DNA of 24,470 nt, from IMG/VR virus record IMGVR_UViG_2909272501_000001. One strand, 5' to 3'. Made by a program: the position numbers and the translations under genes. The notes under the pieces are model-generated. The model made no database searches, was not told the DNA's origin, and worked only from the letters and a program-made list of their open reading frames with translations. The DNA is from a virus. Lineage: Duplodnaviria > Heunggongvirae > Uroviricota > Caudoviricetes. Of the stretch, positions 8,037 to 24,470 are shown in pieces; position 1 is the stretch's first letter, and every line of letters begins with the position of its first letter.

Positions 8037-8118
8037 TGCGCGCTAAGGCTGATATTATAATTTTCTTTAATTCTATTTGGTATTTTGGCTTTATTCGTCA
8101 GAAGGAACGTTTAGAAAT

Positions 8119-8146
8119 AGACCACTACAATGGATTGTAGCGGTCT
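8119..8146 (-). terminator. Hairpin terminator candidate ending the int-RT-partner operon
   Basis: 12-bp inverted repeat AGACCACTACAA/TTGTAGCGGTCT (one G-U-compatible mismatch), 4-nt loop, ~10 nt downstream of the partner gene stop, followed by a modest T-rich tract on the minus strand. Confidence 0.4.
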
Positions 8147-8155
8147 GCATGATAT

Positions 8156-8896
8156 CTAGCGTTGCATTTCAGTTACTATGAAATTTTCTTCTGTAATAGA
8201 ATTCATTATCTCAAAGTACAATTCTTCAGGTTGAATAAACGCCAACTCTTTGCAAAGGTTGACAATGGTATCACTATAAGTGATACCCATCCGAGGATTG
8301 AAAAGCTCAAATCTCTTGATGTTTCTTTTGTTTTTTGAGTAAAAGTTTAAAGTGAAATATATTAGCACCTGTCTAAGATCGTAAACACTAAACTTCCTAT
8401 CTCCTGATTTTATTTCCACAAGAACATTTGAATAATAAATATCGCCATATGAATTATTTATTACTCCGCATCCATCGAATTGTGGAGACACTTCAATTTG
8501 GTTTTCCATTCCATATCGAGACAAAATGTTTCTTGCTATTTCCCTTATGGCATTGTACTCAACCATGCTTAAGGGTAGCTTGAAGTTAGAACCGTAAGCG
8601 AACCGCTGTAGATATTCTTTTGTTTTTTCAAAAACAACCTGAAAATCAGCATTATGGAAGATATCATGTGCTGAAAGAATATTTCTGTCTAACGAATCAT
8701 TCTGTATTGCCCTATATAAATTAAATGCGCACTCATTAACAAAGACGTTATTTGACCTATTAGCGCAGTCATCTAGAGGAGGATAAACGTCCTCGATGAG
8801 ACTGCCGTTAATGATGCGTATGAAATTATTAGCATTTGGAAGCAATTGATTCCAAAATGAAGTGAATTTTCGAGAAAACGTTAATTCAGATATCAT
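8156..8896 (-). CDS. Hypothetical 246-aa protein, partner of the reverse transcriptase; possible nuclease-like effector
   Basis: ATG overlaps the RT stop (ATGA at 8893-8896), with RBS GAGGA inside the RT 3' end. Very AT-rich. Segment GDIYYSNVLVEIKSG could be a D...ExK (PD-(D/E)xK-like) core, but this is unverified. Confidence 0.75.
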   Translation of the reverse strand: MISELTFSRKFTSFWNQLLPNANNFIRIINGSLIEDVYPPLDDCANRSNNVFVNECAFNLYRAIQNDSLDRNILSAHDIFHNADFQVVFEKTKEYLQRFAYGSNFKLPLSMVEYNAIREIARNILSRYGMENQIEVSPQFDGCGVINNSYGDIYYSNVLVEIKSGDRKFSVYDLRQVLIYFTLNFYSKNKRNIKRFELFNPRMGITYSDTIVNLCKELAFIQPEELYFEIMNSITEENFIVTEMQR

Positions 8897-10521
8897 AGCG
8901 CATCCTCAAGATTTCTTGCGGTATGCCTTTTACTTGCCCAATCCCTGTAAATCACCTCTACAAAGTTGAATGTTTTCTTATTATGCTCTCTCCAGTGCCG
9001 TCCTTCATCACCTAAGATGTAACTGGAAACGATCAATAGTCTTCTCTGCAACGGATGCATTGCAGAGAAATTTTTTTTGATATCAGAAAGCCATGCGTAA
9101 GAATTAATTTTTGCCATTGACTGTGTAACTATGTTCTTGACTAAGATGCTTTCTGGATTGTTATTGTATATTTCACTAAGGATTAGGGTGGATTTTTCTG
9201 AATTTTCTTTTGAGAGCATTCGGGCTACATAGGCTAAGTTGAGCTCAGTACTCAAAATATATGAATCTTGTTTAATTAGTGCAGTTATTTTATCAAGAAT
9301 AATATCTTTGGTTTCTGTGCTTAATTTTTGCCAGTTGGAGTTAGCTACTTGAATTATAGTTGTAAATATTGGATATAACTCATGCAAGTTATTAAACATT
9401 ACTTTGAAAGCACTACTTATTATTTCATCTGATGTTGCTGAGAATGCCTTTATCAAATGCTTGCTAAAAGATTGGTTAATTTTTGATTTTTGTAACTCAC
9501 TACTCAGCATAGCTAACAAGTCAAAATCTTTTAAAGATTCCTTTATCTCTTCATATTCCTCTATCGCATTTGCTGAGTAAGGATCGAATCTTATAGGAAG
9601 ACTCATAAATTTAGCCTTCATAGGAGATTCTTCATCTTCATCATTACCATGCAACTTAGCTTTAGTTACTGAAAGGAACTCTTCTTTAGTAACAATATTG
9701 GTTTTTTGTTTCTGTAAAGTTAGCCCTTCATTTTCCATCAGTTTTTTACTAAGCAAAGTTAAAATCTTATGAGCATCCTCTCTAGAGTTACAAAAAATAA
9801 CAAAGTCGTCGACATAACGCTTATAGTTGATTCTATTCATAGACAATAATTTATCAATAGAATCTAGAGCTAGTTCTGCTAATATTCTAGAGGCAGGACA
9901 TCCAACTGGTACTCCATATGATTTTGTTTCACTAAATGTCTGTAGTAATTTCTTGATTTTCCCAGAGTAATCTTTATTGGGGTCGACTCTATCTAACGCA
10001 TTTTCTAAACGGTGGTGATAAATACGCGGATAGAAATCTGCTATATCGCATGTAAGTACATACTTTATTTCATCGTTAGAACATTCAGAGATACTGTCTT
10101 CTTGATATTTTCTCCAAGAGATCTCTTTATCAAAAAGAGAACCATCAGCAAGGTTTGGTTTAAAGCGATATGAATAAACCTGCGTTTTAGTAGATCTATT
10201 CCTTTCAATATCATCAGCGATTTTTAAAACTAACCCAAGAAAAAAAGCATTCCAGAATGGATCAATTTGGGTCGCCCACCTGTAACCATAATAACCAATA
10301 CTTGAAAAGCTATTAATTATGTTTGGTGGAATCTCGATCCTTTTATTTTCAAAGTCATTAAATGTTTGCATTAATGCAGTTTTTACTTTCTCCTTATCAT
10401 CTTCAAATAACCGACTTTCAAATGGGTAAGGGAAAATATCTGTATCGCCGTGCTTTATAATATTTTCCAATGCAAGCTCAAAGCAATTTTCTAGTTTACT
10501 ACTATCAAACTCGTTACTCAT
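8893..10521 (-). CDS. Reverse transcriptase, 542 aa, with ~230-aa alpha-helical C-terminal extension; UG/Abi-like defence-associated RT candidate
   Basis: RT motifs in canonical order: LTCDIADFYPRIYHHRL (motif A-like), SYGVPVGCPASRILAELAL (motif B'-like), KRYVDDFVIF (YVDD catalytic motif C), NEGLTLQKQKTNIV (motif D/E-like). RBS AAGGAGA; start overlaps the int stop by 8 nt. No retron-type VTG motif seen. Confidence 0.85.
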   Translation of the reverse strand: MSNEFDSSKLENCFELALENIIKHGDTDIFPYPFESRLFEDDKEKVKTALMQTFNDFENKRIEIPPNIINSFSSIGYYGYRWATQIDPFWNAFFLGLVLKIADDIERNRSTKTQVYSYRFKPNLADGSLFDKEISWRKYQEDSISECSNDEIKYVLTCDIADFYPRIYHHRLENALDRVDPNKDYSGKIKKLLQTFSETKSYGVPVGCPASRILAELALDSIDKLLSMNRINYKRYVDDFVIFCNSREDAHKILTLLSKKLMENEGLTLQKQKTNIVTKEEFLSVTKAKLHGNDEDEESPMKAKFMSLPIRFDPYSANAIEEYEEIKESLKDFDLLAMLSSELQKSKINQSFSKHLIKAFSATSDEIISSAFKVMFNNLHELYPIFTTIIQVANSNWQKLSTETKDIILDKITALIKQDSYILSTELNLAYVARMLSKENSEKSTLILSEIYNNNPESILVKNIVTQSMAKINSYAWLSDIKKNFSAMHPLQRRLLIVSSYILGDEGRHWREHNKKTFNFVEVIYRDWASKRHTARNLEDAL

Positions 10522-11698
10522 TCACATTCTCCTTAATAAAAATATAATCTGAATACCACTGCATCATATCACGGCGTTTATCAATATATTGAGCATGATT
10601 ATACGTACCTCTAATATTATTCTTATCTATATGAGCAAGCTGTATTTCTATCCAAGCCGAATCATATCCTTTTTCGTGGAGGATAGTAGATAAGGAATGT
10701 CGAAATCCATGACCAGTAAGTTTTCCACCATAACCAATACGCTTGATAACTTGGTTAATACTCGCCTCACTCATAGGCTTGTTCGGATCGTTCCGCCCCG
10801 GAAAAACATAACTATACTTCCCTGTCATCATCTTGAGTTCATTTAGCAAATCTAACGCTTGAGTCGACAAAGGCACAAGGTGTGATCTGCGCATTTTCAT
10901 CCTTTCAGCAGGAATTTCCCAAATAGCGTTATCTAAATCAAATTCTGACCATAATGCCGCACGTAATTCGATGGTTCTAACACCTGTAATCATGAGCAAT
11001 TTCGTGGCAATCAGGACAAGCCGACTTCCGGTATATCCGTTTAAGGCGCGAAGAAAATCAGGTATCTCATTAGCCTTTAAGAACGGGAAATGATTTGATT
11101 GGTGTACATTGAGGGCGCTTGAAAGATCCGCAGCAGGGTTAAACTCAGCCCTTCCAGTAGCAATGGCATAGCGGAAAACTTCTGAGCATCGCTGCCGAAC
11201 TTTGCGCATTTTTTCTAATGCACCGCGCTTTTCGATTTTACGCAGCACATTAAGCAGTTCTAGCGGTTTAATCTCTCCCACTGGCCTTGTTCCCACATAA
11301 GGAAAAATGTCGTTCTTAAACGCTTCCATGATGTCTGATGCATATCCCGCCGACCATTTGGTAGACTTCTGTTGATGCCACTCTCTGGCTATCTTTTCGA
11401 AGGCGTTCTCTGACTCTGTTTGCAGAGCCAGCTTTTGCTCTTTTCGAACCTCACTAGGGTTCTTTCCTTCTGCCACAAGTTTTCGAGCTTCATCACGACG
11501 GGAACGAGCATCAGCAAGAGTGATCGTTGGGTAAACACCAAGCGAGATCATTTTGGGTTTACCGGCATAGCGATAACGAAATCGCCAGCTTTTACTTCCA
11601 TTTGGCTCTACAAGTAAAGACAACCCTTGCCCATCCCCAAGTGTATAGGCTTTAGCTTCAGGTTTAGCACGGCGAATCTGCATATCATTTAGGGGCAT
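10514..11698 (-). CDS. int: P4-type (DUF4102-family) tyrosine integrase
   Basis: 394 aa. N-terminal ...RRAKPEAKAYTLGDGQGLSLLVEPNGSKSWRFRYRYAGKPKMISLGVYP... is characteristic of P4/CP4-57-type integrases. Catalytic R...HxxR...H...Y residues (GVRTIEL, GHGFRHSLS, LAHIDKN..RGTYNHAQY). Confidence 0.88.
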   Translation of the reverse strand: MPLNDMQIRRAKPEAKAYTLGDGQGLSLLVEPNGSKSWRFRYRYAGKPKMISLGVYPTITLADARSRRDEARKLVAEGKNPSEVRKEQKLALQTESENAFEKIAREWHQQKSTKWSAGYASDIMEAFKNDIFPYVGTRPVGEIKPLELLNVLRKIEKRGALEKMRKVRQRCSEVFRYAIATGRAEFNPAADLSSALNVHQSNHFPFLKANEIPDFLRALNGYTGSRLVLIATKLLMITGVRTIELRAALWSEFDLDNAIWEIPAERMKMRRSHLVPLSTQALDLLNELKMMTGKYSYVFPGRNDPNKPMSEASINQVIKRIGYGGKLTGHGFRHSLSTILHEKGYDSAWIEIQLAHIDKNNIRGTYNHAQYIDKRRDMMQWYSDYIFIKENVNE

Positions 11699-11861: not shown

Positions 11862-11881
11862 ATGGTGCCGATAATAGGAGT
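11862..11881. repeat. Right copy of the imperfect direct repeat; candidate att core shared by both elements
   Basis: ATGGTGCCGATAATAGGAGT, see 537-556. The first 9 nt (TGGTGCCGA) resemble the reverse complement of a tRNA 3' end, but no T-arm follows. Confidence 0.5.
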
Positions 11882-12023
11882 AAAACACTCGATTAATCTC
11901 GTGTTAATGCCATCACCTACGACCATTACTAATTGATTGAATCTGATAGAAAAATTATCATTTTCTATACCTTACAATCAATTTACACATTACAAACGCT
12001 CCGACACTTTAGCCGGAGATTTT

Positions 12024-13301
12024 ATGAGATACAAGCCTAACCAATACTTAATCTGTGATTCTTACGGTAACTACTATTTAAGGATCACGCTGCCTGTGTA
12101 TATGCAGCCCTTTTTTGAAGGAAAAAGGACGTTTGTCAGAAGTCTACACACAAGTAATCTTCGTGTGGCACGTCGAAAGCGTGATCAGATTGCAGATGAA
12201 TACCATTGCTTACGGGAGAGTGTTGCCCCTGTAAACAGCACAATAGAAAACACGCTGGAACTGTTACGCAGTAAGGCTAAATACGCCAAAACAGCTACCA
12301 GAATGCAAGATACAGCGTCTTCGTGTCCGTCATTGCTTAAAATTCTTGAAATCTACCTGACAATTAACAGCACGAAGAAGAAGCCAGCCACTTTAGCTAA
12401 GGCAAGAAAAGCGGTAGAGATGTTTCTCTCCTACCGTAAAAAGCCTGATATTGCATTGCAAGATGTAAGCCGCACCACTGTTACAGGCTGGATTGAACAC
12501 ATGCAAAAAACCCTTTCACAACAATCAATTGCAAATTATATCAGCCCAATGGTCCAGCTATGGGAGTTAGCTTCATCACGTTACCACGATGCGCCAGAAA
12601 GGGCGCTCTCCCCCTGGCGAGGGCATAGGCTTGATGTGGCACAAAGTAGAGAGAGCTACGAGGCATTTTCTAACAAAGAGCTATTGCAGGTGTTGCAAGT
12701 ATTTTCCGGTGATTCAGCAGAAAACAAAGAAATGACGGCTTTGTGTCTTATCGGTTTATATACAGGTATGCGGATCAATGAGATAGCAAGTATCACAATA
12801 GACGATGTGAAAGAGATCGAAGGTGTGCTGTGTTTTGAAATCACACAGGGAAAAACGAAAGCTGCGGCACGTCTTGTGCCTGTGCATAACCTTATCACTC
12901 CGTTGGTGTTGTCGCTGCGTGAAAAGCCTCACAATGGCTTTTTGTTCTATCACGCCAGCATTACAGAACGTGCTGACGGTAAACGCTCTACGTGGCATAC
13001 ACAACGATTTACAAGAGCTAAACGAAAGGCTTTAGGGGAAAAGGGAACAGAAAGGAAAGTGTTTCATTCTCTGAGACACGGAGTAGCACAGCTTCTTGAT
13101 CGAAATCAAATTCCAGAAGACAGGATCGCCCTTCTCCTGGGCCATACACGCGGCAATACAGAAACATTCCGCACATATAGCAAGAATGCAGCTTCTCCAG
13201 TAGAGCTTAAAAAATATATTGAGCTTTTACGCTACCCTGAAATAGAGAAAGGCTTATCAATCAATAAAAAATCAAATTTAAGGCGTAAAACAACGCCATA
13301 G
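12024..13301 (+). CDS. Second tyrosine recombinase/integrase (425 aa from the ATG at 12024; track ORF begins at a TTG at 11937)
   Basis: Catalytic signature GMRINEI (R), FHSLRHGVAQ (HxxR), LLGHT (H), TYSKN (Y). RBS GGAG 5 nt before the ATG. AT-rich. Confidence 0.75.
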   Translation: MRYKPNQYLICDSYGNYYLRITLPVYMQPFFEGKRTFVRSLHTSNLRVARRKRDQIADEYHCLRESVAPVNSTIENTLELLRSKAKYAKTATRMQDTASSCPSLLKILEIYLTINSTKKKPATLAKARKAVEMFLSYRKKPDIALQDVSRTTVTGWIEHMQKTLSQQSIANYISPMVQLWELASSRYHDAPERALSPWRGHRLDVAQSRESYEAFSNKELLQVLQVFSGDSAENKEMTALCLIGLYTGMRINEIASITIDDVKEIEGVLCFEITQGKTKAAARLVPVHNLITPLVLSLREKPHNGFLFYHASITERADGKRSTWHTQRFTRAKRKALGEKGTERKVFHSLRHGVAQLLDRNQIPEDRIALLLGHTRGNTETFRTYSKNAASPVELKKYIELLRYPEIEKGLSINKKSNLRRKTTP

Positions 13302-13381
13302 ACGTAATAAAGAGGCTTCAATATAGATTGATGCCTCTTTTATGATTATCTCGTTACAGAGCGTTTCATAGGCGTTTAAGG

Positions 13382-14059
13382 CTATTGTTTAAATACTGGC
13401 GTTACAACGTCTTGCCCTGGGCTTTTTTGATTTTTCTGTTCTGTTGTATTTACCTGCATTTTAACCTGTCCCCCTACAGATTTATTTGGTGCTGTTTTTA
13501 CAGCAATAGCATTAGTGGTGGCCTTAGAGACAAGACGAATTTGCTCAAAATCAAGAGTAAACAATAAGCTTTCGCTTGCTTCTTCTTCGTAAGACATGCC
13601 AACTAACACAACGTTGTCATAATTTTTTAACTCAGTGACAAGTAGGAAAGGTTGGCGACTGTCCATCAACTGATTTAGGTATTCAAGCATAAGCATACGT
13701 CGATTGCCGTTAATTCCCGCATTCTTAATCATATCGGGATTGAGTTTCAATACGGTTTCAGAGATACGCCCCTGTAATGTGAACTTGTTATTCCGTATTT
13801 GAACATGATCACTAACTTCTGATCCTGATTCGACGGCATAGCTTGTAACGTCTGCATTTCGGCTAACTTTCGTCGATTCCACGTTATCAAATGATAATGC
13901 CCGGTAGTCATTGTAAGCAGCATTTGCACCACTGCCGAGGTTAGAGGTAATAATCGCAAAGCCGTTACCCCCTTTAGTTGTTCTACCGTTGCTATCGTTG
14001 CTTGTGCTGTTGATTTTCGCCTCAGTCGGGCGACCAATGGTTAACGGACCCATTGCCAT
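13382..14059 (-). CDS. Hypothetical protein, 225 aa (possible virion-associated protein)
   Basis: ORF with RBS AAGGA; last gene of a co-oriented leftward block that includes capsid-like candidates. No recognisable motif. Confidence 0.45.
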   Translation of the reverse strand: MAMGPLTIGRPTEAKINSTSNDSNGRTTKGGNGFAIITSNLGSGANAAYNDYRALSFDNVESTKVSRNADVTSYAVESGSEVSDHVQIRNNKFTLQGRISETVLKLNPDMIKNAGINGNRRMLMLEYLNQLMDSRQPFLLVTELKNYDNVVLVGMSYEEEASESLLFTLDFEQIRLVSKATTNAIAVKTAPNKSVGGQVKMQVNTTEQKNQKSPGQDVVTPVFKQ

Positions 14060-14106
14060 AATTTGTAATCCTTATTTAAGGGGGCTAAACAGCCCCACAG
14101 TGATGA

Positions 14107-15948: not shown

Positions 15949-15982
15949 GCTAATTGTTTCCCTGTATTATGATTGTTGTTTA

Positions 15983-16180
15983 TTATTGTTTTTTAGAGCA
16001 ATAGTATTGAATTGCTTCGAAAGTGCTGCATCCAGTCTGAAAGACACGCTGACGCACATTATTTGCATCAATTTCTAAAAGGCGGCAAAGCGCCGATGTG
16101 TTTATAACTGATTCCTCGCTAATAGCTGCCAGTTCTTTTACAGATTTAAGAATTAATGCCTGTGAATTTTCTGCGTTCAT
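15983..16180 (-). CDS. Small hypothetical protein, 65 aa
   Basis: ORF between the 343-aa and 613-aa genes; no motif recognised. Confidence 0.3.
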   Translation of the reverse strand: MNAENSQALILKSVKELAAISEESVINTSALCRLLEIDANNVRQRVFQTGCSTFEAIQYYCSKKQ

Positions 16181-17367: not shown

Positions 17368-17381
17368 TATTATTTTCCTTG

Positions 17382-17765: not shown

Positions 17766-17769
17766 AAGA

Positions 17770-17967
17770 TTATTTTCCTTTCAGTTGTTTAATTTTAGAT
17801 TTAAGGGCATCAGCAAGACTAACCGCATCAGCCGATTTAAATAATTGAGCAGTGGTAGAACGAAGACTTTCGGGAGTAACTCCCAACAGTGCGGCAACCT
17901 TAATGAGGTTTTCATCACTAACAATCATCGTTTCCCCGTCTTTGCTGATAATCATTTCTTGTTTCAT
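17770..17967 (-). CDS. Small hypothetical protein (65 aa from the ATG with RBS AGGAAC; track ORF extends to 18009)
   Basis: ORF with plausible RBS; first gene of the leftward structural-like block. Confidence 0.3.
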   Translation of the reverse strand: MKQEMIISKDGETMIVSDENLIKVAALLGVTPESLRSTTAQLFKSADAVSLADALKSKIKQLKGK

Positions 17968-18948
17968 AAATAACGTTCCTGTTAGTGCCAGACAAATAAA
18001 AAGCCCCAATGCCGTAAGAGGTTCTGACCAGCAAAGGGGCTTTAACGTGCGGGCAATTACATAATTGATAAGTTAAACTATAAGAGGATTAAACATATCA
18101 GCAAATACACTTTTTAAATATACTTGATGATATGCTTAAAGGGTGAATAGATACTCCTGAAAACATGCTCTTAAGAAAACATGCGGAATCAATCAGGAAT
18201 ATCTATTCGGGGCGCGGTGGCTAACCGCTATCTTTCATGGTGTGGATGCACCAGTCAGATTTTAAGGAATCACTATTCCAATCTACTCACAGATTAAATT
18301 TTTAATAAGGATTAACTACACCAACAGTAATCTACCGTTTCAGAAAATCGTTTCACAACCAAAGATTATAGATCCGCATTCTATAAAACCCGTTTTGCTA
18401 TCAATATTTCCAAAGTTTATTGCACCATTCTTAGCTAAACTCTCTCTACTTGCGGCTAACGCTATGCAGATGATAGTTTTTTGACAACAACTTAATAGAT
18501 TATTCTGTTACTAACTTCCGTCATTAAATAAGAGTTTAATGATGTTAGTAAATAGTTATAAAATATAACTATCAGTGTAAGGCTCTTTAATGTTTTCGGA
18601 CAAAATAAGGAGCTTTAGGATAAGCATAGATGAAAAATAAGAGCGGGAAGGGCAAGGAGATAACACCTACCCGCTTTTATCAAAAATTAAGCACAATGCC
18701 TAACAACATTCATCAACACAACGTAGAAACAATCAACAATCAAAGAGGGAGTTATGATTATTCTAAAACTTCTTGATAGATGGAAGGTAATATTTGTTAG
18801 AGGTTAATGCCACTCAACCTTTGAGGCTATCACCTTCCATATGCAGGGATTTATGACAGTAGAAGGATTAACACCAACTAAAATCTTTTAATCTACCCCT
18901 AAAATTATTATATAACAAAATCATCATAAATGCAAATGATTTTCATTA

Positions 18949-19251
18949 TCATTTAGAGAAAATAGCACTTTTTGCTAAATCATTTACTAATTGCTGAATC
19001 TCTTCACTTGCAGCCTTTAACGTGCTGGCGGTGTCTGTGATGGTTTGAGTGCACATCTTGGCATCTGATAGCTCTAAATCGCTCACCAGAGAGACAAAAT
19101 CTTCTAAGCATACATTGAGCTTCATTAAGCTAATAACGCATTGAGAGAGCGTATAATCGCATAAATCTGAATAGGCTTGATTTATTCTTGTTTGTAGTGA
19201 GATAGTCAGATCTAAAAGTTGTTCCATTGCATTGCTAATATCTTCTTCCAT
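18949..19251 (-). CDS. Hypothetical acidic helical protein, 100 aa
   Basis: ORF; start ATG overlaps the stop of the upstream 81-aa gene. Confidence 0.4.
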   Translation of the reverse strand: MEEDISNAMEQLLDLTISLQTRINQAYSDLCDYTLSQCVISLMKLNVCLEDFVSLVSDLELSDAKMCTQTITDTASTLKAASEEIQQLVNDLAKSAIFSK

Positions 19252-19496
19252 TATGCGTATTCTCCTTGTAATGCATCATTAATCATATTCAATACGATGT
19301 TAAAAGGTGTCTTGAGCGTCAGCACTTCATCACGGTAACGTTCTAATGCTTCGTAGTCTTCTGTTTCTTTTGCCAGCCGGATTAACTCAGCATAGTTTTT
19401 TGCATCAGACAGGAGCATCTGAAATAATTGTGTTTCTTGAATATAGCCAATCATTATTTTTCCTTTTTCGAATATTTTCATTGGGCGCTTATACAT
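19251..19496 (-). CDS. Hypothetical protein, 81 aa
   Basis: ORF in the co-oriented operon downstream of the rep-like gene. Confidence 0.4.
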   Translation of the reverse strand: MYKRPMKIFEKGKIMIGYIQETQLFQMLLSDAKNYAELIRLAKETEDYEALERYRDEVLTLKTPFNIVLNMINDALQGEYA

Positions 19497-19511
19497 ACGC
19501 CCGTCTTTCTA

Positions 19512-19892
19512 TTAGTTAGAACGTTTGTTAGATGCGAGAGTGTCGATCAGGTGCTGCATCAGATCTGTTTCTGTAACGCCGCCTACCTGATTGTTGAACG
19601 AATTGAAGCCTGTATAGTGACGAAATGAGGTAAAGCCTAACAATTGCCATTTCTTCAATGTGCCAGGTTCTATAATCGTTGTCTTTCTTGTTCTGGGTTT
19701 GAAATACACACCATCACCCATTGATTGAATAATTTCTAATTCTTCGTTTGTAAGTGGTGGGCTGTTAGATTCTAAAATGAAGACTATCTCTTCACCTGCT
19801 TCTTCATTATTCTTATAAACTTGCTTTCTTACGTCGTTGAAGGTGTTCCCTTGCTCAATACGTTTTAAGTTGTTCTTTTTCTTTCTTCCCAT
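19512..19892 (-). CDS. Hypothetical protein, 126 aa, basic N-terminus
   Basis: ORF with RBS GAGGGA; N-terminal MGRKKKNNLKR. Confidence 0.45.
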   Translation of the reverse strand: MGRKKKNNLKRIEQGNTFNDVRKQVYKNNEEAGEEIVFILESNSPPLTNEELEIIQSMGDGVYFKPRTRKTTIIEPGTLKKWQLLGFTSFRHYTGFNSFNNQVGGVTETDLMQHLIDTLASNKRSN

Positions 19893-20026
19893 TTTCCCTC
19901 TTTTTATGTGGATTATAAAAACTGAATGCCATAGTTACGATGAATATTGCTACAAATGCACTTGCCATATGTATTGCCCGATCTGTTGTTACTGATTGTT
20001 TGTGATGTTATAAATCATTTATTTCC

Positions 20027-20596
20027 TTAAAAGGGTAGTGAATCATATATTGTGCTCTCACTTTTGAGATCAATTATCAAAGAGTCAAAATCATTTTCAC
20101 AAAGATAGATATTCTTTGAATCTAATGCTCGTTTTACAAAATCTTCTGTTTCTTCGTGCGGTGGTTTCTTCTTATCAAGGGAAAGAAGCCAAGTAAAAAT
20201 TTCGGGCCGCTCAGGGAACTCTGGCTCTTGTGTTTCTTCTTCAACGATGATTTCGGAAACATTCAATATTTCATTAGATTCGTCTTCTTTCTCAGAAGGA
20301 TCAGGTAGTGATGATTCTCCTTTTGGAATATCAAGCACTCGATAAAGGTTAGAGCTTCCTGGTCGTGCATCTTTTATAATTAATCCCATTTCGAGCAATT
20401 TCTTAACCCTTTCTTCTGCTGCTCTTGGTGTTATGCCAAAAACATCGCCTATCTTAGCGTAAGAGGGAAATGCACGATCAAACCCTCTCAGATAGCAGTA
20501 AAGGTTTTTAGCACTATCTGTAAATTTATGCCCGTTTACTTGGCTTATTTTTAGAATCCACATAGGAACTTTTACAAATTGTTCTTCATTAATCAT
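20027..20596 (-). CDS. Winged-helix DNA-binding protein, 189 aa from the ATG at 20596; replication initiator / replisome-organiser-like candidate
   Basis: RBS AAGGAGA 5 nt before the ATG. Segment NLYCYLRGFDRAFPSYAKIGDVFGITPRAAEERVKKLLEMGLIIK resembles wHTH initiator N-domains. Acidic C-terminal half. Same operon as an RHH protein and downstream of the iteron cluster. Confidence 0.5.
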   Translation of the reverse strand: MINEEQFVKVPMWILKISQVNGHKFTDSAKNLYCYLRGFDRAFPSYAKIGDVFGITPRAAEERVKKLLEMGLIIKDARPGSSNLYRVLDIPKGESSLPDPSEKEDESNEILNVSEIIVEEETQEPEFPERPEIFTWLLSLDKKKPPHEETEDFVKRALDSKNIYLCENDFDSLIIDLKSESTIYDSLPF

Positions 20597-20649
20597 TAAA
20601 AATCTCCTTGATGTAATCACGCTCTACGGCGCTACTATGGTGATAAAAA

Positions 20650-20820
20650 TCACTTGCTTTTGTTTGAGAGTGTTTCAGCCTCTCTTTTCAACATATCAAG
20701 AATGTAATCTGTAACAGTGATACGTTTACTTCTGGCTTCTTTAAACAACACCTGAAATACTTCATCAGGAATATGAAAGCAAGTGCGTGGTTGCCTTTTC
20801 TTTTCTGTAGTTTCGCTCAT
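20650..20820 (-). CDS. Ribbon-helix-helix (CopG/Arc-like) DNA-binding protein, 56 aa from the internal ATG
   Basis: Strong RBS AAGGAGA before the ATG at 20820. Sequence KRQPRTCFHIPDEVFQVLFKEARSKRITVTDYILDMLK fits the RHH beta-strand-helix-helix pattern. Confidence 0.55.
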   Translation of the reverse strand: MSETTEKKRQPRTCFHIPDEVFQVLFKEARSKRITVTDYILDMLKREAETLSNKSK

Positions 20821-20839
20821 AGTTTTCTCCTTCTCTTCT

Positions 20840-21040
20840 TTACTCTGTTTCAGATTCTTTTTCAGATCCTTTTTCATTTTTTCTTAATTCATCAATAATT
20901 TTTAGTGCATCGTCAAAGCATTTTTCACGCTCTGGATAACCACAGCGTCGCGCTGTGTTCCTGTTCATCCTTACTTTAAAACGGTTGATCTCACCACGTT
21001 TCCAGGCTTCCACAATATCCTGTGGAGTGAAATATTTCAT
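20840..21040 (-). CDS. Hypothetical small protein, 66 aa
   Basis: Strong RBS AGGAGG before the ATG at 21040; first gene of the leftward operon below the iteron region. Confidence 0.45.
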   Translation of the reverse strand: MKYFTPQDIVEAWKRGEINRFKVRMNRNTARRCGYPEREKCFDDALKIIDELRKNEKGSEKESETE

Positions 21041-21883
21041 TAATTAACCTCCTATTCTATTTAGTTAAAAGAAATAGACACCTTGCAAGCCTTGGGCTTC
21101 AAAGTGCGATGCATTGGTTTAATTATTTAAAGGATAAGAATGTTTTCCTGCCCCTAATATTACTTTACCACGACTAAAGGCTTTTGTCAACCCCCCAGCC
21201 ATAAAAATATTGATCATTTTCAGTGTGTTATGATTTTTCTTAGCAATTCGTGCTCTTACGAATACTCCAATTCTTCATTATTGTCTAAAACGCTCTAAAA
21301 CGCGTTCTAACGAGGTTTTGATAAAAACAATACATTCCCTTATGTAATGGCTGTTTAGCTCGCCTACGGTTTGATTTAAGCGGTAGAAACTCATCTACTA
21401 CCTAACATCTTTAAACCATATTTTTCTTTTTTGTCTGTTTGATGGTTGATCTATAGTTATGCGTTAGCATCCCCAAAGGGGTAACGCTACCCTAATTGCA
21501 TTCGCAAGAACATTGCACAAGAAATTTATTTTAGATGATTGATGATCGTTAGATGGTAGTTAGTTAATTATCGTTCTGCGCACAGCGCAAGACTATTTAG
21601 CCTTACGCAAGCCGTAGGCTATTTGCACATAGTAGATTACATATTCGTTGTGAGCGGAAAGCGAACATAGATCTACTAACTAACATTAACAAACAAAAAC
21701 TATGTGTTATGAGAAGTATCAGTCTAACTGACTAACACTCTAACTTGTGCAAGGTTCTGGCGAATGCCAATAGATTAAGGGATAGTCGAAGACTCCCTAA
21801 CGGGTATCCCTATAATTATTCTTTAAAGATAAAAGAATTTATAAAAGATAATTTAATTGTAGTTTGATAGTTGATCTAATAGG

Positions 21884-22021
21884 TAACAAAATTCTGTAGG
21901 GGTGGCTAACAGTTTTCTGTGGGGGTGTCTAACATAATTCTGTTAGGGTTGGGGTAACAGTTTTCTGTTAGGGTGCATATTTCTTTAAAAGTTAAGGATA
22001 ACAGAATTCTGTGGGGGTAGC
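21884..22021. repeat. Iteron cluster: five ~23-bp direct repeats, consensus TAACA(n)3TTCTGT(n)GGGGT
   Basis: Copies begin at 21884, 21907, 21930, 21955 (tandem, 23-25 bp spacing) and 21999 (after an AT-rich spacer), upstream of the operon containing the RHH and wHTH genes. Confidence 0.6.
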
Positions 22022-22854
22022 TCACAGTGACCTACCGTTACATCCATCACATAACATCTGTGCAATGATCTTCTTATAATCAGTAAAAGTCTTTCTTGCT
22101 ATCAAAAATTAAACATCTAAAACAAGCTTAAATTCAAGATTAATTGATGATTAATCCCTGTGTAATTCCATACTAAAAAATCCAAGAAAAATGGCTTCAA
22201 AATGCAATTCTTACTTTCTTCACTTTTGCGTCATCATCAGCAAAGCCTTATGTTATGCGGCATATAGCGCATCACTGCAAAATTGTTGCTCAATAAACGT
22301 TCTATCATTTGTTGAACAAGTTCTTTCACGTGTTGAAAATTTATGTTTAAATTTGCTTTCAATCTTTAATGTGCAATCACTATCAACATAAAAATAAAAA
22401 ATCTTCTATTATATTTCATAGCATACAAAAGTCAATAGAAGCCCTCTCGTGCTCCTACGTAAAAAATCCACCATTTTTCCCCTGATACATCAACTCAAGG
22501 CGTTCTATGTGTTCCTTAGTGCATATTACGATTATTATGTTAAATGTATTTTGGCCTATATTTTGACCTGCACCCGCATAAACACTGGTTTCATCGCTTA
22601 CAGCCCTTGTGAGACGTGGTGCTGTTTCTAGCATCTGATCCGACATAAAACCGATCATTCTCGTGTTTAGTGAAAGTTTAGTGAGAGACATTACAGAAAG
22701 GCTTTCTGTGTAATGATTTAATAGGTAAAAACGATGTTGATTACGCAAGAAAATTCCTTGCTGATATTTGGGGATTCTGGATTTTCCAGATCGGGGGGCG
22801 CTGAAAATCGCGTTAAGCACCTCTCGCAATCTAGCCATAAGGGAGGGGATTCAT

Positions 22855-22929
22855 ATGTATTTAGATGTATTTATAGCTATTTATGGCTATTTATTTTTTA
22901 TTTACCTTTATTTGAAAACAACCTTATAA
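22855..22929 (+). CDS. Candidate 24-aa hydrophobic peptide MYLDVFIAIYGYLFFIYLYLKTTL
   Basis: ATG 5 nt after a strong SD (AAGGGAGGGG). Very short, so a coding call is tentative. Confidence 0.25.
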   Translation: MYLDVFIAIYGYLFFIYLYLKTTL

Positions 22930-23146
22930 ATCAATAAGATACAGAACAACCTGTTTATATTTTAATCACTTAAATTACGTTTAATACCCTTAAATCACCT
23001 GAAAATAACCTTAAATACCCCAATAATTAATTTTAACGATTCCTGTGCTCTCTTCTACATTGCAAAAAGGCAAAAAAAGCCCATAGAGGCACAAAAATAT
23101 TAAAACCAATAACTCAATAATGCCTCTACAAGAGCTTCTCTAACTG

Positions 23147-23698
23147 TTATTTTTGATTGAGCTTACATCGATCCCATTGTTCTGTCGTTCTTGTGATACG
23201 ATCGCTTATTGCAAAATTTAATAGCCAAGAATCATAAGCATAAACCTTGCTTTTATCATCTGCCATCATAAACTTGCCGTTAGCATTCAGTTTTGGCGAT
23301 ATCAAATATGTTCCATTTAATCTGTTAGCCTTGAAGCTATCTGCATATAAAGTTACTTGTGCGTATCCCTGAACACGTAATGCCCCTAAACGTCCGTTTT
23401 CGATTGATGCAATAGAGTATTGGCAAAGATAATTTTTGGCAGCAGGAGTCGTTTTCACTCCTTCAGTTTTTCGTGAATTATTTGATTGCGAGCTTCGAAT
23501 AGAGGATGAAGGATAAGAGTATGAATGATTTTTATAAGATGAAGGGGCATAAGAGCCAATCCGGCACGTCTTACCAACAGCTATACACGAGTTACCACAA
23601 GGTATTCCTTTTTTGCAGTTTTTAGCAACTGCGGTAGAAGTTCCCCCTACAAACAACGTTGTAAAAATCATCATCCTCACAAATGCAGACCTGCGCAT
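23147..23698 (-). CDS. Secreted Cys-rich protein, 183 aa
   Basis: N-terminal signal-peptide-like segment (MRRSAFVRMMIFTTLFVGGTSTAVA), then a 4-Cys cluster (CKKGIPCGNSCIAVGKTC), a Ser/Tyr-rich linker and a C-terminal domain. Confidence 0.55.
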   Translation of the reverse strand: MRRSAFVRMMIFTTLFVGGTSTAVAKNCKKGIPCGNSCIAVGKTCRIGSYAPSSYKNHSYSYPSSSIRSSQSNNSRKTEGVKTTPAAKNYLCQYSIASIENGRLGALRVQGYAQVTLYADSFKANRLNGTYLISPKLNANGKFMMADDKSKVYAYDSWLLNFAISDRITRTTEQWDRCKLNQK

Positions 23699-24092
23699 AT
23701 AACCTCCCTTTTTAGATTATTCTTATGCTATACACTTGCTTAAAAAAATAAAAGTGCCCTCTAACCTTTATCGTTCTCCATCACAATTTGAGAAGTAAGA
23801 GCAGCAACCTCAAGCGATGATCACGTTTGCGCCGATTTCAGAGAAAAAGACAGTAACTGAACTCACTATGAAGGCTAAACGTATCTTTACACTTGATGAA
23901 AACGTTCAAAAAACAACCTAACCCCAAAATTCAACAAATAACAACATATTGTTTTTAAAAGAAAATTAAATCTACATCAAATATTGGTTGACGTAGATTG
24001 AGGTGAATAGTAGACTATTAGGGTAAATTGCCATTCTTGCAACATCATTTAATGCATGTTCTAATCCTCCTATCCCAAAACCGGAGGAAGTT

Positions 24093-24251
24093 ATGCATTT
24101 ACTTTCAAAACATCTTCACACTATTCACTTTCTCGTTATTGATGTATTCATTGTGGCTATTAGTTACCGCATTTGCATCGCTTCCAGTGAAGAGATGGAC
24201 GCTGTTGCAATTATTGCTCAAGCAATGGCGATGTTAACTAAACGACTTTAA
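24093..24251 (+). CDS. Candidate small protein, 52 aa, hydrophobic N-terminal half
   Basis: ATG 5 nt after SD GGAGGAAG; below the 60-aa cut-off of the ORF track. Possible -35/-10 pair (TTGACG, 17 nt, TAGACT) at 23979-24007. Confidence 0.3.
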   Translation: MHLLSKHLHTIHFLVIDVFIVAISYRICIASSEEMDAVAIIAQAMAMLTKRL

Positions 24252-24320
24252 TAATTTCACTATCAGGCGCATAAACACATCTTTGATCGCTGGATGTGTT
24301 ATGCGCCTACTGGTGATTCA

Positions 24321-24470
24321 ATCCTTAAGCCATTTCAACTCACTAAGGAGTTTTCTTTCTTCGTTCTCTCTCTGTTTACGCTCTAGCCAGGCTTTTCCTT
24401 CTGGCGTAGACAGGAACTTACGAGCGTGAATCTTGCGGTTATTACGTTTGATAGCTGCAATATTTTTCAT
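24321..24470 (-). CDS. Partial small basic ORF running off the right window edge
   Basis: Open frame ...MKNIAAIKRNNRKIHARKFLSTPEGKAWLERKQRENEERKLLSELKWLKD with stop at 24318-24320; the true start may lie beyond the window. Confidence 0.2.

What the first reader, a model, noticed from the sequence alone, without database searches (positions are those of the whole stretch)
8040..24470. Sharp compositional break: GC-rich P4 backbone versus AT-rich cargo, integrase and second element
By eye, 1-8040 is GC-rich, while everything from the RT partner onward is markedly AT-rich. That includes the P4-type int itself and the whole right-hand element. This points to recent acquisition from a lower-GC donor, with int possibly swapped together with the cargo.
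Basis: seen in the sequence. Interest (0 to 1): 0.35.

Follow-up and report, generated by a model that had tools for sequence, protein, structure and literature searches.

The report
GC step at P4 satellite hotspot
The sharp GC drop is real, but it is the normal border, just past the cos packaging site, between the conserved core of a P4-type phage satellite and its swappable AT-rich defence-gene slot (here a DRT8 reverse-transcriptase system), and the region to the right is a separate integrated element.

Summary
The best GC change-point is at 8051 (54.6% to the left, 38.6% to the right), and its log-likelihood ratio of 280 compares with at most 4.4 in shuffles.

The step lies 15 bp past the cos site (8018-8036) of a P4-like satellite (538-11881) integrated at tRNA-Thr thrW in E. 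coli. It is not peculiar to this copy:
- Canonical P4 splits at its own cos.
- In 51 non-redundant P4-like loci the change-point lies a median of 12 bp past cos.
- Mean GC in those loci is 0.52 for the core, 0.33 for the hotspot and 0.45 for int.

The cargo is a DRT type 8 defence pair sitting in the known psu-cos/int defence hotspot.

The suggestion that int was swapped with the cargo is supported and refined:
- The core proteins are 98-100% identical to P4, but int is only 39% identical.
- A Citrobacter satellite with a divergent backbone carries the same DRT8 pair and the same int.
- Left junctions fall inside the 19-nt cos and right junctions fall inside int.

A single low-GC donor for everything is not supported. 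GC differs between cargo (33%), int (43%) and the right-hand element (43% then 36%).

The right-hand block is an independent element of about 13 kb that encodes homologues of phage Phi92 capsid, tape-measure and tube-initiator proteins. It may be an undescribed satellite.

The parts
538..553 (.). Left att of the P4-like element: an imperfect copy of the thrW 3' end (TGGTGC-GATAATAGGA, one base deleted)
   Evidence: The same sequence is conserved at the left end of the Citrobacter element L010.
673..975 (.). P4 crr (cis replication region, two 120-bp repeats), AT-rich
   Evidence: P4 homology starts at 673, which corresponds to P4 4291 where crr begins. GC of 412-1029 is 0.377.
1030..3363 (-). 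alpha primase-helicase, GC 0.611
   Evidence: Zn-ribbon primase, Toprim, D5_N and Pox_D5 domains. 98.6% aa identity to P4 alpha.
3378..4569 (-). orf106 (DUF5375), orf151 and epsilon (derepression protein)
   Evidence: Pfam hits. 99-100% aa identity to P4.
4562..5424 (-). Immunity region: Ash/Icd-like ORF, CI RNA (C4 family, 4814-4901), isrK (5009-5086), a1b1 targets (5047-5099), and AlpA/Vis (5158-5424)
   Evidence: Pfam hits and Rfam hits. The cI/ash ORF is only 60.8% identical to the P4 ORF.
5976..7853 (+). sid-delta-psu helper-subversion operon
   Evidence: Ogr_Delta and Psu Pfam hits. 97.6-98.9% aa identity to P4.
8018..8036 (+). cos 19-nt cohesive end, GGCGTGGCGGGGGGAGCAT. It is the 'Citrobacter type' (T5, T19) joined to a P4-type left flank.
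   Evidence: The switch from P4-type to Citrobacter-type sequence lies between 8017 and 8022.
8047..10513 (.). Defence hotspot (variable cargo slot), GC 0.33. The GC change-point is at 8051.
   Evidence: Homology to sister elements ends at 8046/8047 and resumes at 10533-10583. Change-point.
8156..8896 (-). RT-associated PD-(D/E)XK protein of DRT8 (contains a ...D...VEIK motif)
   Evidence: PADLOC RTasPDDEXK, E = 5.5e-69. Translation.
8893..10521 (-). Drt8 reverse transcriptase (YVDD motif)
   Evidence: PADLOC Drt8, E = 4.9e-166 over the full length. RVT_1, E = 1.2e-18. Translation.
10514..11698 (-). P4-family tyrosine integrase of the thrW-specific lineage, GC 0.43
   Evidence: Arm-DNA-bind_3, Phage_int_M and Phage_integrase domains. 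39% aa identity to P4 int and 93% to the Citrobacter L010 int.
11863..11881 (.). att core, a copy of the thrW 3' end (TGGTGCCGATAATAGGAGT). It is the junction between the P4-like element and the second element, and the insertion point of a 12.7-kb third element in other strains.
11882..24470 (.). Independent second integrative element. It continues about 600 bp beyond the window to thrW. GC is 0.43 for the int and structural part and 0.36 for the regulatory and replication part.
12024..13301 (+). Second-element integrase (DUF6538 tyrosine recombinase)
13382..14059 (-). Tube-initiator (Dit-like) protein, a homologue of Phi92 gp135
   Evidence: PF21821, E = 2e-27. PDB 21vq_N Phi92_gp135, E = 1.4e-53. 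gp135 role from PMC13450770.
14107..15948 (-). Tape-measure-like protein, a homologue of Phi92 gp134
   Evidence: phrog_16051, E = 2.7e-33. PDB 21vq_V Phi92_gp134, E = 1.2e-21. About 30% aa identity to TMPs of phages of about 150 kb.
16336..17765 (-). Major capsid protein (16336-17367), followed by a 127-aa ORF in the cement-protein position (17382-17765)
   Evidence: Homologues at 42-49% identity carry PF03864. The profile matches Phi92 gp124 MCP at E = 4e-11. The 127-aa ORF matches gp123 only at E = 0.98, which is not significant.
20027..20620 (-). HTH / replication-initiator-like protein. Its N-terminal part (20283-20637) is 98.9% nt identical to a gene of phapecoctavirus Mt1B1_P17.
21884..21975 (.). 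Iteron-like tandem repeat (23-nt unit, 3.5 copies) in a 1.4-kb non-coding stretch. It is a candidate origin of replication.

Best explanation
What it is (shown). The GC step at 8051 is the cos-proximal border of the known defence hotspot of a P4-like phage satellite (538-11881) integrated at the thrW tRNA-Thr site of E. coli.
- To the left lies the conserved, GC-rich P4 core: crr, alpha, epsilon, the CI RNA immunity region, and sid-delta-psu. It ends at the cos packaging site (8018-8036).
- To the right lies the variable slot (8047-10513, GC 0.33), here holding a two-gene DRT type 8 system (Drt8 reverse transcriptase plus a PD-(D/E)XK protein).
- Next comes a thrW-specific P4-family integrase (GC 0.43) and the att core (11863-11881).
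- The three-level pattern of core about 0.52, hotspot about 0.33 and int about 0.45 is a family-wide trait of P4-like satellites, whatever the cargo or host genus. It does not mark a particular donor.
- Everything right of 11881 is a different integrative element inserted in tandem at the same tRNA site, with its own composition.

How the mosaic arises (partly shown, partly inferred).
- Shown: the block from cos through the cargo and into int moves between P4 backbones as one unit. The left junction always lies in the roughly 30-nt conserved cos block, at either edge of the 19-nt cohesive end or inside it. The right junction lies inside int or at att, so the cargo-proximal 3' part of int hitch-hikes with the cargo.
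- Inferred (about 0.45): the cos junction is made through terminase-generated cohesive ends. This could be annealing of ends from two different satellites, or in-situ cos-to-cos packaging across head-to-tail tandem satellites, whose internal junction is a functional attP. The second exchange would occur by homologous recombination within int or by Int at att.
- Plain homologous recombination anchored on the conserved cos block cannot be excluded.
For: Position of the step:
- Change-point at 8051, LLR 280.
- P4 homology (97.4%) runs from 673 to 8017, which is the last base of the P4 record. cos lies at 8018-8036.

Family-wide pattern:
- Canonical P4's best split is at its coordinate 34. Its core is 0.554, gop-beta-cII 0.364 and int 0.462.
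- In 51 non-redundant loci the change-point is a median of 12 bp past the cos end (IQR 8-15), and 46 of 51 are within 100 bp. Core is 0.520+/-0.011, hotspot 0.332+/-0.020 and int 0.448+/-0.027. The order hotspot < int < core holds in 50 of 51.
- The loci come from E. coli, Enterobacter, Tatumella, Citrobacter, Kluyvera and Photorhabdus, plus IMG/VR.

Cargo and P4 identity:
- Drt8 E = 4.9e-166 and RTasPDDEXK E = 5.5e-69.
- P4 core genes and CI RNA.

Module exchange:
- Against L005 (same site, same backbone at 97.8%), the cargo is unrelated and int 10572-11571 is only 77-84% identical. Identity returns to 98% from 11572.
- Against Citrobacter L010, identity is 53-75% up to about 8084 and 84-95% through the cargo and int.
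- L051 against L089: the last mismatch is at cos +19, then 2.9 kb of cargo is 100% identical, then identity decays inside int.
- 68 loci give 45 cargo clusters, 50 int alleles and only 51 combinations.
- Within an int lineage, pairs with different cargo have median int identity 0.82 (0.3% of pairs reach 0.95). Pairs with the same cargo have median 0.997.
- The identity gradient along int runs 5' to 3' from 0.857 to 0.721 for different cargo, and from 0.905 to 0.981 for the same cargo.

cos junctions:
- Ten of 73 P4-type backbones carry Citrobacter-type or mosaic cos 19-mers. These form six haplotypes with six different cargos.
- In all ten, the last four diagnostic sites left of the nick, including the base at -1, stay P4-type. 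Two of the ten (L031, L053) carry one or two isolated Citrobacter-type bases further left.

Preconditions for the tandem route:
- L088 is a head-to-tail P4-P4 tandem.
- Tandem P4-like elements are reported in PMC8628076.
- Three att copies bound three tandem elements at thrW in L002.

Literature:
- The hotspot is defined, and a cohesive-end route speculated, in PMC9122126.
- PMC13586616 states that the recombination processes still need to be elucidated.
Against: - No function was tested. DRT8 activity and cos functionality are inferred from homology.
- Only about five diagnostic positions exist in the cos block. The junction positions cannot be statistically separated from crossovers placed at random within the roughly 34-nt conserved block, which is also the only homology available to ordinary recombination.
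- The three cos variants could in principle arise by recurrent mutation.
- The loci were chosen by Psu similarity, so the near-identity of the backbones is partly due to sampling. IMG/VR loci carry no host labels.
- Low identity in the last int bin may partly reflect a less constrained C-terminus, although the reversed gradient in same-cargo pairs argues for linkage.
- Linkage is incomplete. L051 and L089 share a 99.7% identical cargo but their int genes are only 80.7% identical.
- The cause of the AT-richness (donor pool, mutational bias, or selection such as H-NS silencing) is not resolved here.
Confidence: 0.8

Rival explanations
1. One reading: one recent horizontal acquisition from a lower-GC donor brought in the cargo, the integrase and the right-hand element together, and the step marks that event.
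For: - Everything right of 8051 is below the host GC. GC3 is 0.26-0.41, against 0.58-0.66 in host flank genes.
- The cargo and int are almost invariant across about 105 E. coli genomes, which suggests recent spread of this particular element.
Against: - The same step occurs at cos in canonical P4 and in 51 of 51 non-redundant relatives carrying 45 different cargos.
- Three composition classes lie to the right of the step: 0.33, 0.43 and 0.36.
- The right-hand element is bounded by its own att copy. It occurs next to P4-like elements with other cargos (L005), and its relatives occur at other sites with no P4 nearby, as in Klebsiella and Enterobacter.
- Relatives of the second element in Klebsiella and Enterobacter show the same 0.41-0.44 GC against flanks of 0.47-0.56.
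Confidence: 0.05
2. The architecture is the same, but the exchange uses only ordinary homologous recombination. One crossover falls in the conserved cos block, which is the only sequence shared between diverged backbones and unrelated cargos, and the other falls in int. Terminase and cohesive ends play no role.
For: - The right junctions lie inside int and form a gradient, as expected for homologous recombination.
- The junction positions in cos are compatible with random placement in the roughly 34-nt conserved block.
Against: - The conserved block is short (about 26-34 nt, with three polymorphic sites) for RecA-dependent exchange between flanks that are 75% identical on one side and unrelated on the other.
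- Mosaic 19-mers (L014/L023, L020, L075) look like repaired heteroduplex cohesive ends.
- Head-to-tail tandems exist that would yield such chimeras without any homologous recombination.
- P2 phages have a hotspot next to the same cos (PMC9122126).
Confidence: 0.4
3. The AT-richness of the slot is maintained by selection rather than inherited from donors. One possibility is xenogeneic silencing by H-NS, which would keep potentially toxic defence genes at low expression. Under this reading the step reflects function, not history.
For: - Hotspot GC is tightly clustered (0.332+/-0.020) across 45 unrelated cargos, across backbones and across host genera with genome GC from about 42% to about 55%.
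- The depression extends to GC3 and to intergenic spacers.
Against: - Nothing here measures silencing or expression.
- A shared AT-biased mobile gene pool with rapid turnover (PMC13586616), leaving no time for amelioration, predicts the same pattern.
Confidence: 0.3
4. The step is a by-product of protein composition, for example lysine- and asparagine-rich defence proteins, rather than a nucleotide-level signal.
For: GC1 and GC2 are also lower in the cargo: 0.39 and 0.29-0.32, against about 0.6 and 0.45 in the backbone.
Against: - The largest difference is at third positions. GC3 is 0.29-0.34 in the cargo and 0.49-0.71 in the backbone.
- Non-coding spacers right of cos are AT-rich as well.
Confidence: 0.03

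Closest known systems
Defence hotspot of P4-like satellites between psu/cos and int (Rousset et al. 2022, PMC9122126; Moura de Sousa et al. 2026, PMC13586616)
   Same: - The position is the same: directly after cos and before int.
- Near-identical backbones carry different cargos.
- The cargo here is a recognised defence system.
   Different: - Searches of those papers for 'GC content' and 'AT-rich' found nothing.
- The 2026 paper excludes int from its core analyses.
- Added here: the GC change-point lies 6-16 bp past cos in most loci, the 3' part of int is linked to the cargo, and left junctions map inside the 19-nt cohesive end.
Canonical satellite phage P4 (NC_001609)
   Same: - 97.4% nt identity over crr, alpha, epsilon, the immunity region and sid-delta-psu.
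- Core proteins are 98-100% identical.
- The same GC step occurs at cos.
   Different: - P4 carries gop-beta-cII in the slot and a leuX-type int. The leuX target is from my own knowledge and was not tested here.
- This element carries DRT8 and an int only 39% identical to P4's, with a thrW att core.
- Its cos 19-mer differs from P4's at 4 positions.
- The cI/ash ORF is only 60.8% identical.
DRT type 8 (UG/Abi reverse transcriptase with a PD-(D/E)XK partner)
   Same: Full-length matches to the PADLOC Drt8 and RTasPDDEXK models. The RT has a YVDD motif and the partner has a D...ExK motif.
   Different: Nothing distinguishes it from the family at sequence level. The family's mechanism is not established (PMC13213688), and no ncRNA was looked for.
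Retronphage phiR73, a P4-like satellite carrying a retron RT and integrated in a tRNA gene (Inouye et al. 1991, cited in PMC9122126)
   Same: A P4-type satellite with a reverse-transcriptase-based system, integrated at a tRNA gene. That its RT lies in the same slot is from my own knowledge of phiR73 and was not tested here.
   Different: A different RT class (retron rather than UG/Abi DRT8). From my own knowledge, it uses a different tRNA target (selC). This was not tested here.
Phage satellites that carry structural genes (cf-PICI, PLE), as a comparison for the right-hand element
   Same: - A small integrative element with an integrase.
- A replication-initiator-like gene with iterons.
- A subset of virion genes related to those of a specific phage group.
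   Different: - It encodes an MCP, a tape-measure-like protein and a tube initiator related to Phi92 and rV5-like lytic myophages.
- No portal, terminase or protease was detected.
- No paper in the held library describes it.

Membership tests
P4-like phage satellite | Core gene set: alpha primase, epsilon/ash, alpA, sid, delta, psu and integrase | tested here: met
   Pfam hits for alpha, the derepression protein, Phage_ASH, Phage_AlpA, Ogr_Delta, Psu and the integrase. 97.6-100% aa identity to P4 for every core protein compared except int and cI/ash. Sid has no Pfam hit but is 98.8% identical to P4 Sid.
P4-like phage satellite | P2-type cos site immediately downstream of psu | tested here: met
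   GGCGTGGCGGGGGGAGCAT at 8018-8036, matching 15 of 19 bases of P4's cohesive end, with flanking conserved blocks. Cleavage itself was not tested.
P4-like phage satellite | RNA-based immunity (CI RNA) and the crr and ori replication elements | tested here: met
   Rfam C4 (77.9 bits), isrK and c4-a1b1. The crr repeats align to P4 4291-4590.
P4-like phage satellite | Mobilisation by a P2-like helper phage | not testable with these tools
   This requires an induction and transduction experiment.
P4 defence hotspot (Rousset 2022) | A variable locus between psu/cos and int, with different content in closely related backbones | tested here: met
   Homology to L005 and L004 stops at 8046/8047 and resumes at 10533-10583. 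There are 45 cargo clusters among 68 loci, nearly all with Psu at least 95% identical.
P4 defence hotspot (Rousset 2022) | The content provides anti-phage defence | not testable with these tools
   Only HMM assignment to DRT8 is available. Antiphage activity of DRT8 is reported at family level (PMC13213688).
DRT type 8 | UG/Abi-class RT matching the Drt8 model, with a polymerase active-site motif | tested here: met
   PADLOC Drt8, E = 4.9e-166, residues 11-532 against profile positions 4-492 of 493. RVT_1 hit. YVDD motif in the translation.
DRT type 8 | An associated PD-(D/E)XK nuclease-fold protein | tested here: met
   PADLOC RTasPDDEXK, E = 5.5e-69. The gene overlaps the RT stop by 4 nt on the same strand. 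PMC12596737 describes DRT8 as characterised by a PD-(D/E)XK domain.
Genomic island recently acquired from a low-GC donor | An identifiable donor, or a donor-like composition shared by the whole tract | tested here: not met
   The tract has three composition classes. The nearest relatives of the cargo and int are other enterobacterial P4-like satellites with the same local GC (L010 cargo 0.329, int 0.437). The step is universal in the family.
tRNA-site tandem island array (thrW) | Elements separated by direct repeats of the tRNA 3' end | tested here: met
   The core TGGTGCCGATAATAGGAGT lies at 11863-11881. L002 has three copies, bounding the P4-like element, a 12.7-kb element and the second element, which ends at thrW. 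An imperfect copy lies at 538-553.
Phage satellite (right-hand element, candidate) | An integrative element with an incomplete virion gene set related to a helper phage | tested here: inconclusive
   It has an integrase, homologues of Phi92 gp124, gp134 and gp135, and a Rep-like gene with iterons. The architecture is conserved in Klebsiella and Enterobacter. No portal or terminase was found among ORFs of at least 60 aa, but not every small ORF was profiled.
Phage satellite (right-hand element, candidate) | Helper-dependent induction, packaging and transfer | not testable with these tools
   This requires infection experiments with Phi92 or rV5-like phages.

The most novel reading that the evidence does not exclude
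The AT-rich right-hand half of the finding (11882 to thrW, about 13 kb) may not be cargo or a prophage remnant. It may belong to an undescribed family of integrative elements that parasitise, or interfere with, Phi92 and rV5-like lytic myophages of about 150 kb.
- It brings its own major capsid protein, tape-measure protein and tube initiator. These proteins set capsid size and tail length.
- It also has a DUF6538 integrase, a Rep-like initiator and iterons.
- The family is present in about 11% of complete E. coli genomes and is conserved in Klebsiella and Enterobacter.
Probability: 0.4. Interest if true: 0.75.

Novelty: new member of a known kind. Interest (0 to 1): 0.33.

Why it matters
As stated, the finding is ordinary. 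It rediscovers, through base composition, the border of the known P4 defence hotspot, with a known system (DRT8) in the slot.

Two things give it some value.

First, the GC change-point is a very precise and general marker. It lies a median of 12 bp past cos in 51 loci, so it could be used to delimit hotspot cargo automatically.

Second, the breakpoint anatomy bears on a question the latest survey leaves open, namely how defence loci are swapped (PMC13586616). The relevant observations are:
- Left junctions fall inside the 19-nt cohesive end.
- Right junctions are graded within int.
- Int alleles pair almost one-to-one with cargos.
- Head-to-tail tandems exist.

Together these turn the cohesive-end idea that Rousset et al. 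speculated about into a specific, testable model. They also warn that P4 int phylogenies and att-site typing are confounded by hitch-hiking with the cargo.

Separately, the neighbouring element deserves its own study as a possible satellite of lytic Phi92-like phages.

Tried and rejected
- The tRNA scan of the window found nothing. The target tRNA-Thr lies about 600 bp beyond the right end and was found through annotated genomes.
- Counting cargo and int co-occurrence in E. coli genomes was not decisive. This element is essentially one clone, and many of the int hits at 99% or above were 75-bp att-region matches.
- The GTDB scan with Psu returned only 6 loci, so the population test relied on IMG/VR.
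- I tried to separate junctions at the terminase nick edges from junctions anywhere in the conserved cos block. There are too few diagnostic sites (-1, +5, +14, +19 and about +27) and only about 7 independent events, so I make no statistical claim.
- The MCP-like ORF had no Pfam or NCBIfam hit and no tblastn hit in 50,697 phage records, and only a weak PHROG match to the major head protein family (E = 1e-4). It was resolved through homologues carrying PF03864 and a profile search of the PDB.
- The 127-aa ORF against the Phi92 cement protein gp123 gave E = 0.98, which is not significant. I make only a positional analogy.
- Searches of the two hotspot papers and the 2021 P4 survey for 'GC content' and 'AT-rich', and of the held library for a satellite of Phi92, rV5 or phapecoctaviruses, found nothing.
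- I rejected assembly chimera, because the full window is present in 30 complete genomes.
- I rejected amino-acid composition as the cause, because the difference is largest at GC3.

Full report
1. OBSERVATION

The compositional break exists and is highly significant. GC is 0.546 for 1-8040 and 0.386 for 8041-24470. The best single change-point is at 8051, with a log-likelihood ratio of 280 against a maximum of 4.4 in shuffles.

Neither side is homogeneous. The left side has AT-rich patches at 506-995 (0.343) and around the P4 ori (0.42). The right side splits into 8052-10632 (0.331), 10633-18054 (0.430) and 18055-24470 (0.357).

The difference is largest at third codon positions. GC3 is 0.49-0.71 in backbone genes and 0.58-0.66 in neighbouring host genes. 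It is 0.29-0.34 in the cargo, 0.38 in int and 0.26-0.41 in the right-hand element. It is therefore a nucleotide-level signal, not just a matter of protein composition.

The sequence is genuine E. coli chromosome. Thirty complete genomes hold at least 80% of the window in one place, and the 22 listed full-length matches are 99.6-100% identical.

2. WHAT LIES ON EACH SIDE

Window 673-8017 matches satellite phage P4 at 97.4%, from P4 coordinate 4291 (the start of crr) to 11624, the last base of the linear P4 record. This stretch contains:
- alpha, orf106, orf151, epsilon, AlpA, sid, delta and psu, all 97.6-100% identical in protein to P4;
- the P4 immunity RNAs, detected by Rfam.

Immediately after 8017 comes the cos cohesive-end sequence at 8018-8036. 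The GC change-point lies 15 bp past its end.

The AT-rich 2.47 kb that follows encodes a Drt8 reverse transcriptase (8893-10521, PADLOC E = 4.9e-166) and an RT-associated PD-(D/E)XK protein (8156-8896, E = 5.5e-69). This is a DRT type 8 defence system. The family is described as RT plus PD-(D/E)XK, and its mechanism is still unknown (PMC12596737, PMC13213688).

Next comes a P4-family integrase (10514-11698) and a 19-nt copy of the 3' end of tRNA-Thr thrW (11863-11881). An imperfect copy of the same core lies at 538-553. The P4-like element therefore spans 538-11881.

Annotated genomes place the window between paoD with a lysR fragment on one side and thrW-proA on the other.

3. THE STEP IS A FAMILY TRAIT

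This position, directly after cos and before int, is the defence hotspot of P4-like satellites described by Rousset et al. 2022 (PMC9122126) and surveyed by Moura de Sousa et al. 2026 (PMC13586616).

The control on canonical P4 is decisive. In prophage order, its best GC split is at P4 coordinate 34, which is cos. Its core is 0.554, gop-beta-cII 0.364 and int 0.462.

I then collected P4-like loci from GTDB genomes (six loci, five further genera), from E. coli genomes and from IMG/VR (80 loci).
- All 68 loci with a complete psu-cos-slot-int layout show the same three levels.
- After dereplication to 51 loci, the change-point lies a median of 12 bp past the cos end (IQR 8-15), and 46 of 51 are within 100 bp.
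- Core GC is 0.520+/-0.011, slot 0.332+/-0.020 and int 0.448+/-0.027. The order slot < int < core holds in 50 of 51.
- The 68 loci hold 45 unrelated cargo clusters.

The step is therefore an architectural constant of the family. It cannot be read as evidence for one particular low-GC donor. The P4 core is also more GC-rich than most of its hosts, which exaggerates the contrast.

4. WAS INT SWAPPED WITH THE CARGO?

Yes, in a refined sense. The int is 39% identical to P4 int although the rest of the element is 98-100% identical. Similarity in int is also incongruent with similarity in the backbone:

| Element | Psu identity to window (aa) | Int identity to window (aa) |
|---|---|---|
| Canonical P4 | 99% | 39% |
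| L007 | 99% | 62% |
| Citrobacter L010 | 63% | 93% |
| E. coli O157 L006 | 31% | 90% |

Three comparisons are the most informative.

(a) Strain 2013C-3264 (L005) has the same chromosomal site, the same backbone (97.8% over 1-8046) and the same right-hand neighbour.
- Its cargo is different.
- int 10572-11571 is only 77-84% identical.
- Identity jumps back to 98% at 11572, inside the 5' end of int.
- The replaced tract is therefore the cargo plus about 90% of int.

(b) Citrobacter sp. Cu233 (L010) has a clearly different backbone. It is 53-75% nt identical up to about 8084, with alpha at 80% nt.
- It carries the same DRT8 pair (96.7% and 92.7% aa) and the same int (93.4% aa).
- Nucleotide identity is 84-95% from 8085 to about 11683.

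(c) At population level there are 45 cargo clusters and 50 int alleles (95% nt) in only 51 combinations. Just one int allele is seen with two cargos.
- Within an int lineage, pairs with different cargos have median int identity 0.82, and only 0.3% of 623 pairs reach 0.95.
- Same-cargo pairs have median int identity 0.997.
- Identity along int falls from 0.857 at the att-proximal 5' end to 0.721 at the cargo-proximal 3' end when cargos differ. It rises from 0.905 to 0.981 when cargos are shared.

The 3' part of int thus hitch-hikes with the cargo, and crossovers are spread through int. Linkage is not absolute. L051 and L089 share a 99.7% identical cargo, but their int genes are only 80.7% identical overall.

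5. THE LEFT JUNCTION

In this window, every diagnostic base up to 8017 is P4-type. From cos position 5 (8022) onward, the sequence is the type found with Citrobacter-like backbones, and this continues through the spacer downstream of cos. The crossover is confined to 8017-8022, which spans the terminase nick.

Among 73 P4-type backbones, ten carry non-P4 cos 19-mers. These form six haplotypes with six different cargos:
- three switch between -1 and +5;
- one switches between +5 and +14;
- one switches between +14 and +19;
- one is a single-site mosaic.

In all ten, the last four diagnostic sites left of the nick, including the base at -1, stay P4-type. Two of the ten (L031, L053) carry one or two isolated Citrobacter-type bases further left.

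In L051 against L089, the last mismatch is at cos +19 and the next 2.9 kb is identical.

So left junctions fall at either edge of the 19-nt cohesive end or inside it. This fits the route Rousset et al. speculated about: joining of cohesive ends from different elements, with a repaired heteroduplex producing the mosaics.

It also fits a second route, which I add as inference. In a head-to-tail tandem array the internal junction is a functional attP. In-situ packaging from the cos of one satellite to the cos of the next would therefore give exactly 'cargo and int of A with the backbone of B'.

The precondition for that route exists:
- L088 is a head-to-tail P4-P4 tandem.
- Tandem P4-like elements are reported in PMC8628076.
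- thrW here carries up to three tandem elements separated by att copies.

There are few diagnostic sites, and the cos block is also the only homology available to ordinary recombination. I therefore cannot exclude plain homologous recombination. I give the cohesive-end or tandem route about 0.45 and recombination alone about 0.4.

6. WHY THE SLOT IS AT-RICH

This is not resolved. The narrow GC range (0.29-0.38) across unrelated cargos, backbones and host genera argues for a class property. Candidates are a shared AT-biased mobile gene pool with turnover too fast for amelioration (rapid swapping is documented in PMC13586616), selection such as xenogeneic silencing, or both. Nothing here discriminates between them.

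7. THE RIGHT-HAND ELEMENT

Everything from 11882 to thrW is a separate integrative element.
- In other strains, a 12.7-kb third element sits between it and the P4 int, exactly at the att copy.
- It occurs next to P4-like elements with other cargos (L005).
- Its relatives occur in Klebsiella and Enterobacter at other chromosomal sites, with no P4 nearby.

It encodes:
- a DUF6538 tyrosine integrase (12024-13301);
- a tube-initiator (Dit-like) protein matching Phi92 gp135 (E = 1.4e-53);
- a tape-measure-like protein matching Phi92 gp134 (E = 1.2e-21);
- a major capsid protein (16336-17367). Its homologues carry PF03864, and its profile matches Phi92 gp124 (E = 4e-11);
- a replication-initiator-like HTH protein. 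Its N-terminal coding part is 98.9% nt identical to a gene of phapecoctavirus Mt1B1_P17;
- an iteron-like array (21884-21975).

The gp roles are from PMC13450770.

No portal, terminase or protease was detected.

The family is found in 607 of 5,426 complete E. coli genomes. The compact gene order is conserved in Klebsiella and Enterobacter, and those islands have GC of 0.41-0.44 against flanks of 0.47-0.56.

I found no description of it in the held literature. It may be a satellite of, or an assembly-interfering island against, Phi92 and rV5-like lytic myophages. That is a lead, not a result.

8. VERDICT

This is a new member of a known kind, a P4-like satellite carrying DRT8 in the known hotspot. 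Interest is modest. It is raised a little by the breakpoint evidence, which bears on the open question of how hotspot swaps occur, and by the neighbouring candidate satellite.

Noticed in passing
window 11882-24470 (continues about 600 bp to thrW): A compact integrative element of about 13 kb. It encodes homologues of Phi92 MCP gp124, TMP gp134 and tube initiator gp135, plus a DUF6538 integrase and a Rep-like gene, with no portal or terminase detected. The family is in 607 of 5,426 complete E. coli genomes, and the architecture is conserved in Klebsiella and Enterobacter. It is a possible undescribed satellite of lytic Phi92 or rV5-like myophages.
   Followed up: partly
window 20283-20637; L099 (phage Mt1B1_P17) 2501-2855: A 355-bp patch is 98.9% identical between the second element's HTH/Rep-like gene and the 5' part of a 328-aa hypothetical gene of a phapecoctavirus. 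This indicates recent DNA exchange between the element and this lytic phage group. A second patch at 13479-13552 is 91.9% identical to many phages of about 150 kb.
   Followed up: partly
window 16336-17367 compared with L005 18802-19830: At the same position in otherwise 85-99% identical copies of the second element, the capsid genes are only 20% identical in protein. The capsid gene, together with the adjacent small ORF, appears to be exchanged as a cassette.
   Followed up: partly
L002 14882-27582 (inserted at window 11862-11881): In many strains a 12.7-kb third element sits between the two integrases, exactly at the att copy. It encodes a DUF4062 protein, an HTH protein, another reverse-transcriptase-domain protein, a serine recombinase, a TIGR04141 protein and a large site-specific integrase. 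It looks like another defence island in the thrW tandem array.
   Followed up: partly
L004 (E. coli FCI56) 8777-14388: A deletion derivative in which a remnant of the P4 left end (the part matching window 521-1284: att/crr and the 3' end of alpha) is fused directly to the cos region. Only the cos region, a cargo annotated as an ATP-dependent nuclease plus a UvrD-family helicase (possibly Gabija-like; not checked against PADLOC) and int remain next to thrW. This is an immobilised hotspot retained without the satellite core.
   Followed up: no
L088 (IMGVR_UViG_641228506_000005) 11114-14182: A second alpha gene (85% aa identity to the window's alpha) lies in the same orientation directly beyond the int of a complete P4-like element. 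This is a head-to-tail tandem of two P4-like satellites.
   Followed up: partly
L007 (URND01000141.1, labelled 'uncultured Clostridiales bacterium'): A 6.8-kb contig in a Clostridiales MAG carries a P4 sid-delta-psu-cos region that is 98-99% identical in protein to the E. coli element. It is probably a mis-binned enterobacterial contig.
   Followed up: no
window 4562-5161: The ORF overlapping the P4 immunity region is 199 aa and is annotated as Icd-like. It is only 60.8% identical to the P4 cI/ash ORF (138 aa), although the flanking genes are 99-100% identical and the CI RNA is present. This may be a second small variable patch inside the core.
   Followed up: no
window 21884-21975 and 18010-18948: An iteron-like tandem array (23-nt unit, 3.5 copies) lies in a 1.4-kb non-coding stretch, and there is a further non-coding gap of about 940 bp at 18010-18948. 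Both are in the AT-rich half of the second element. They are candidates for an origin of replication or a packaging region.
   Followed up: no
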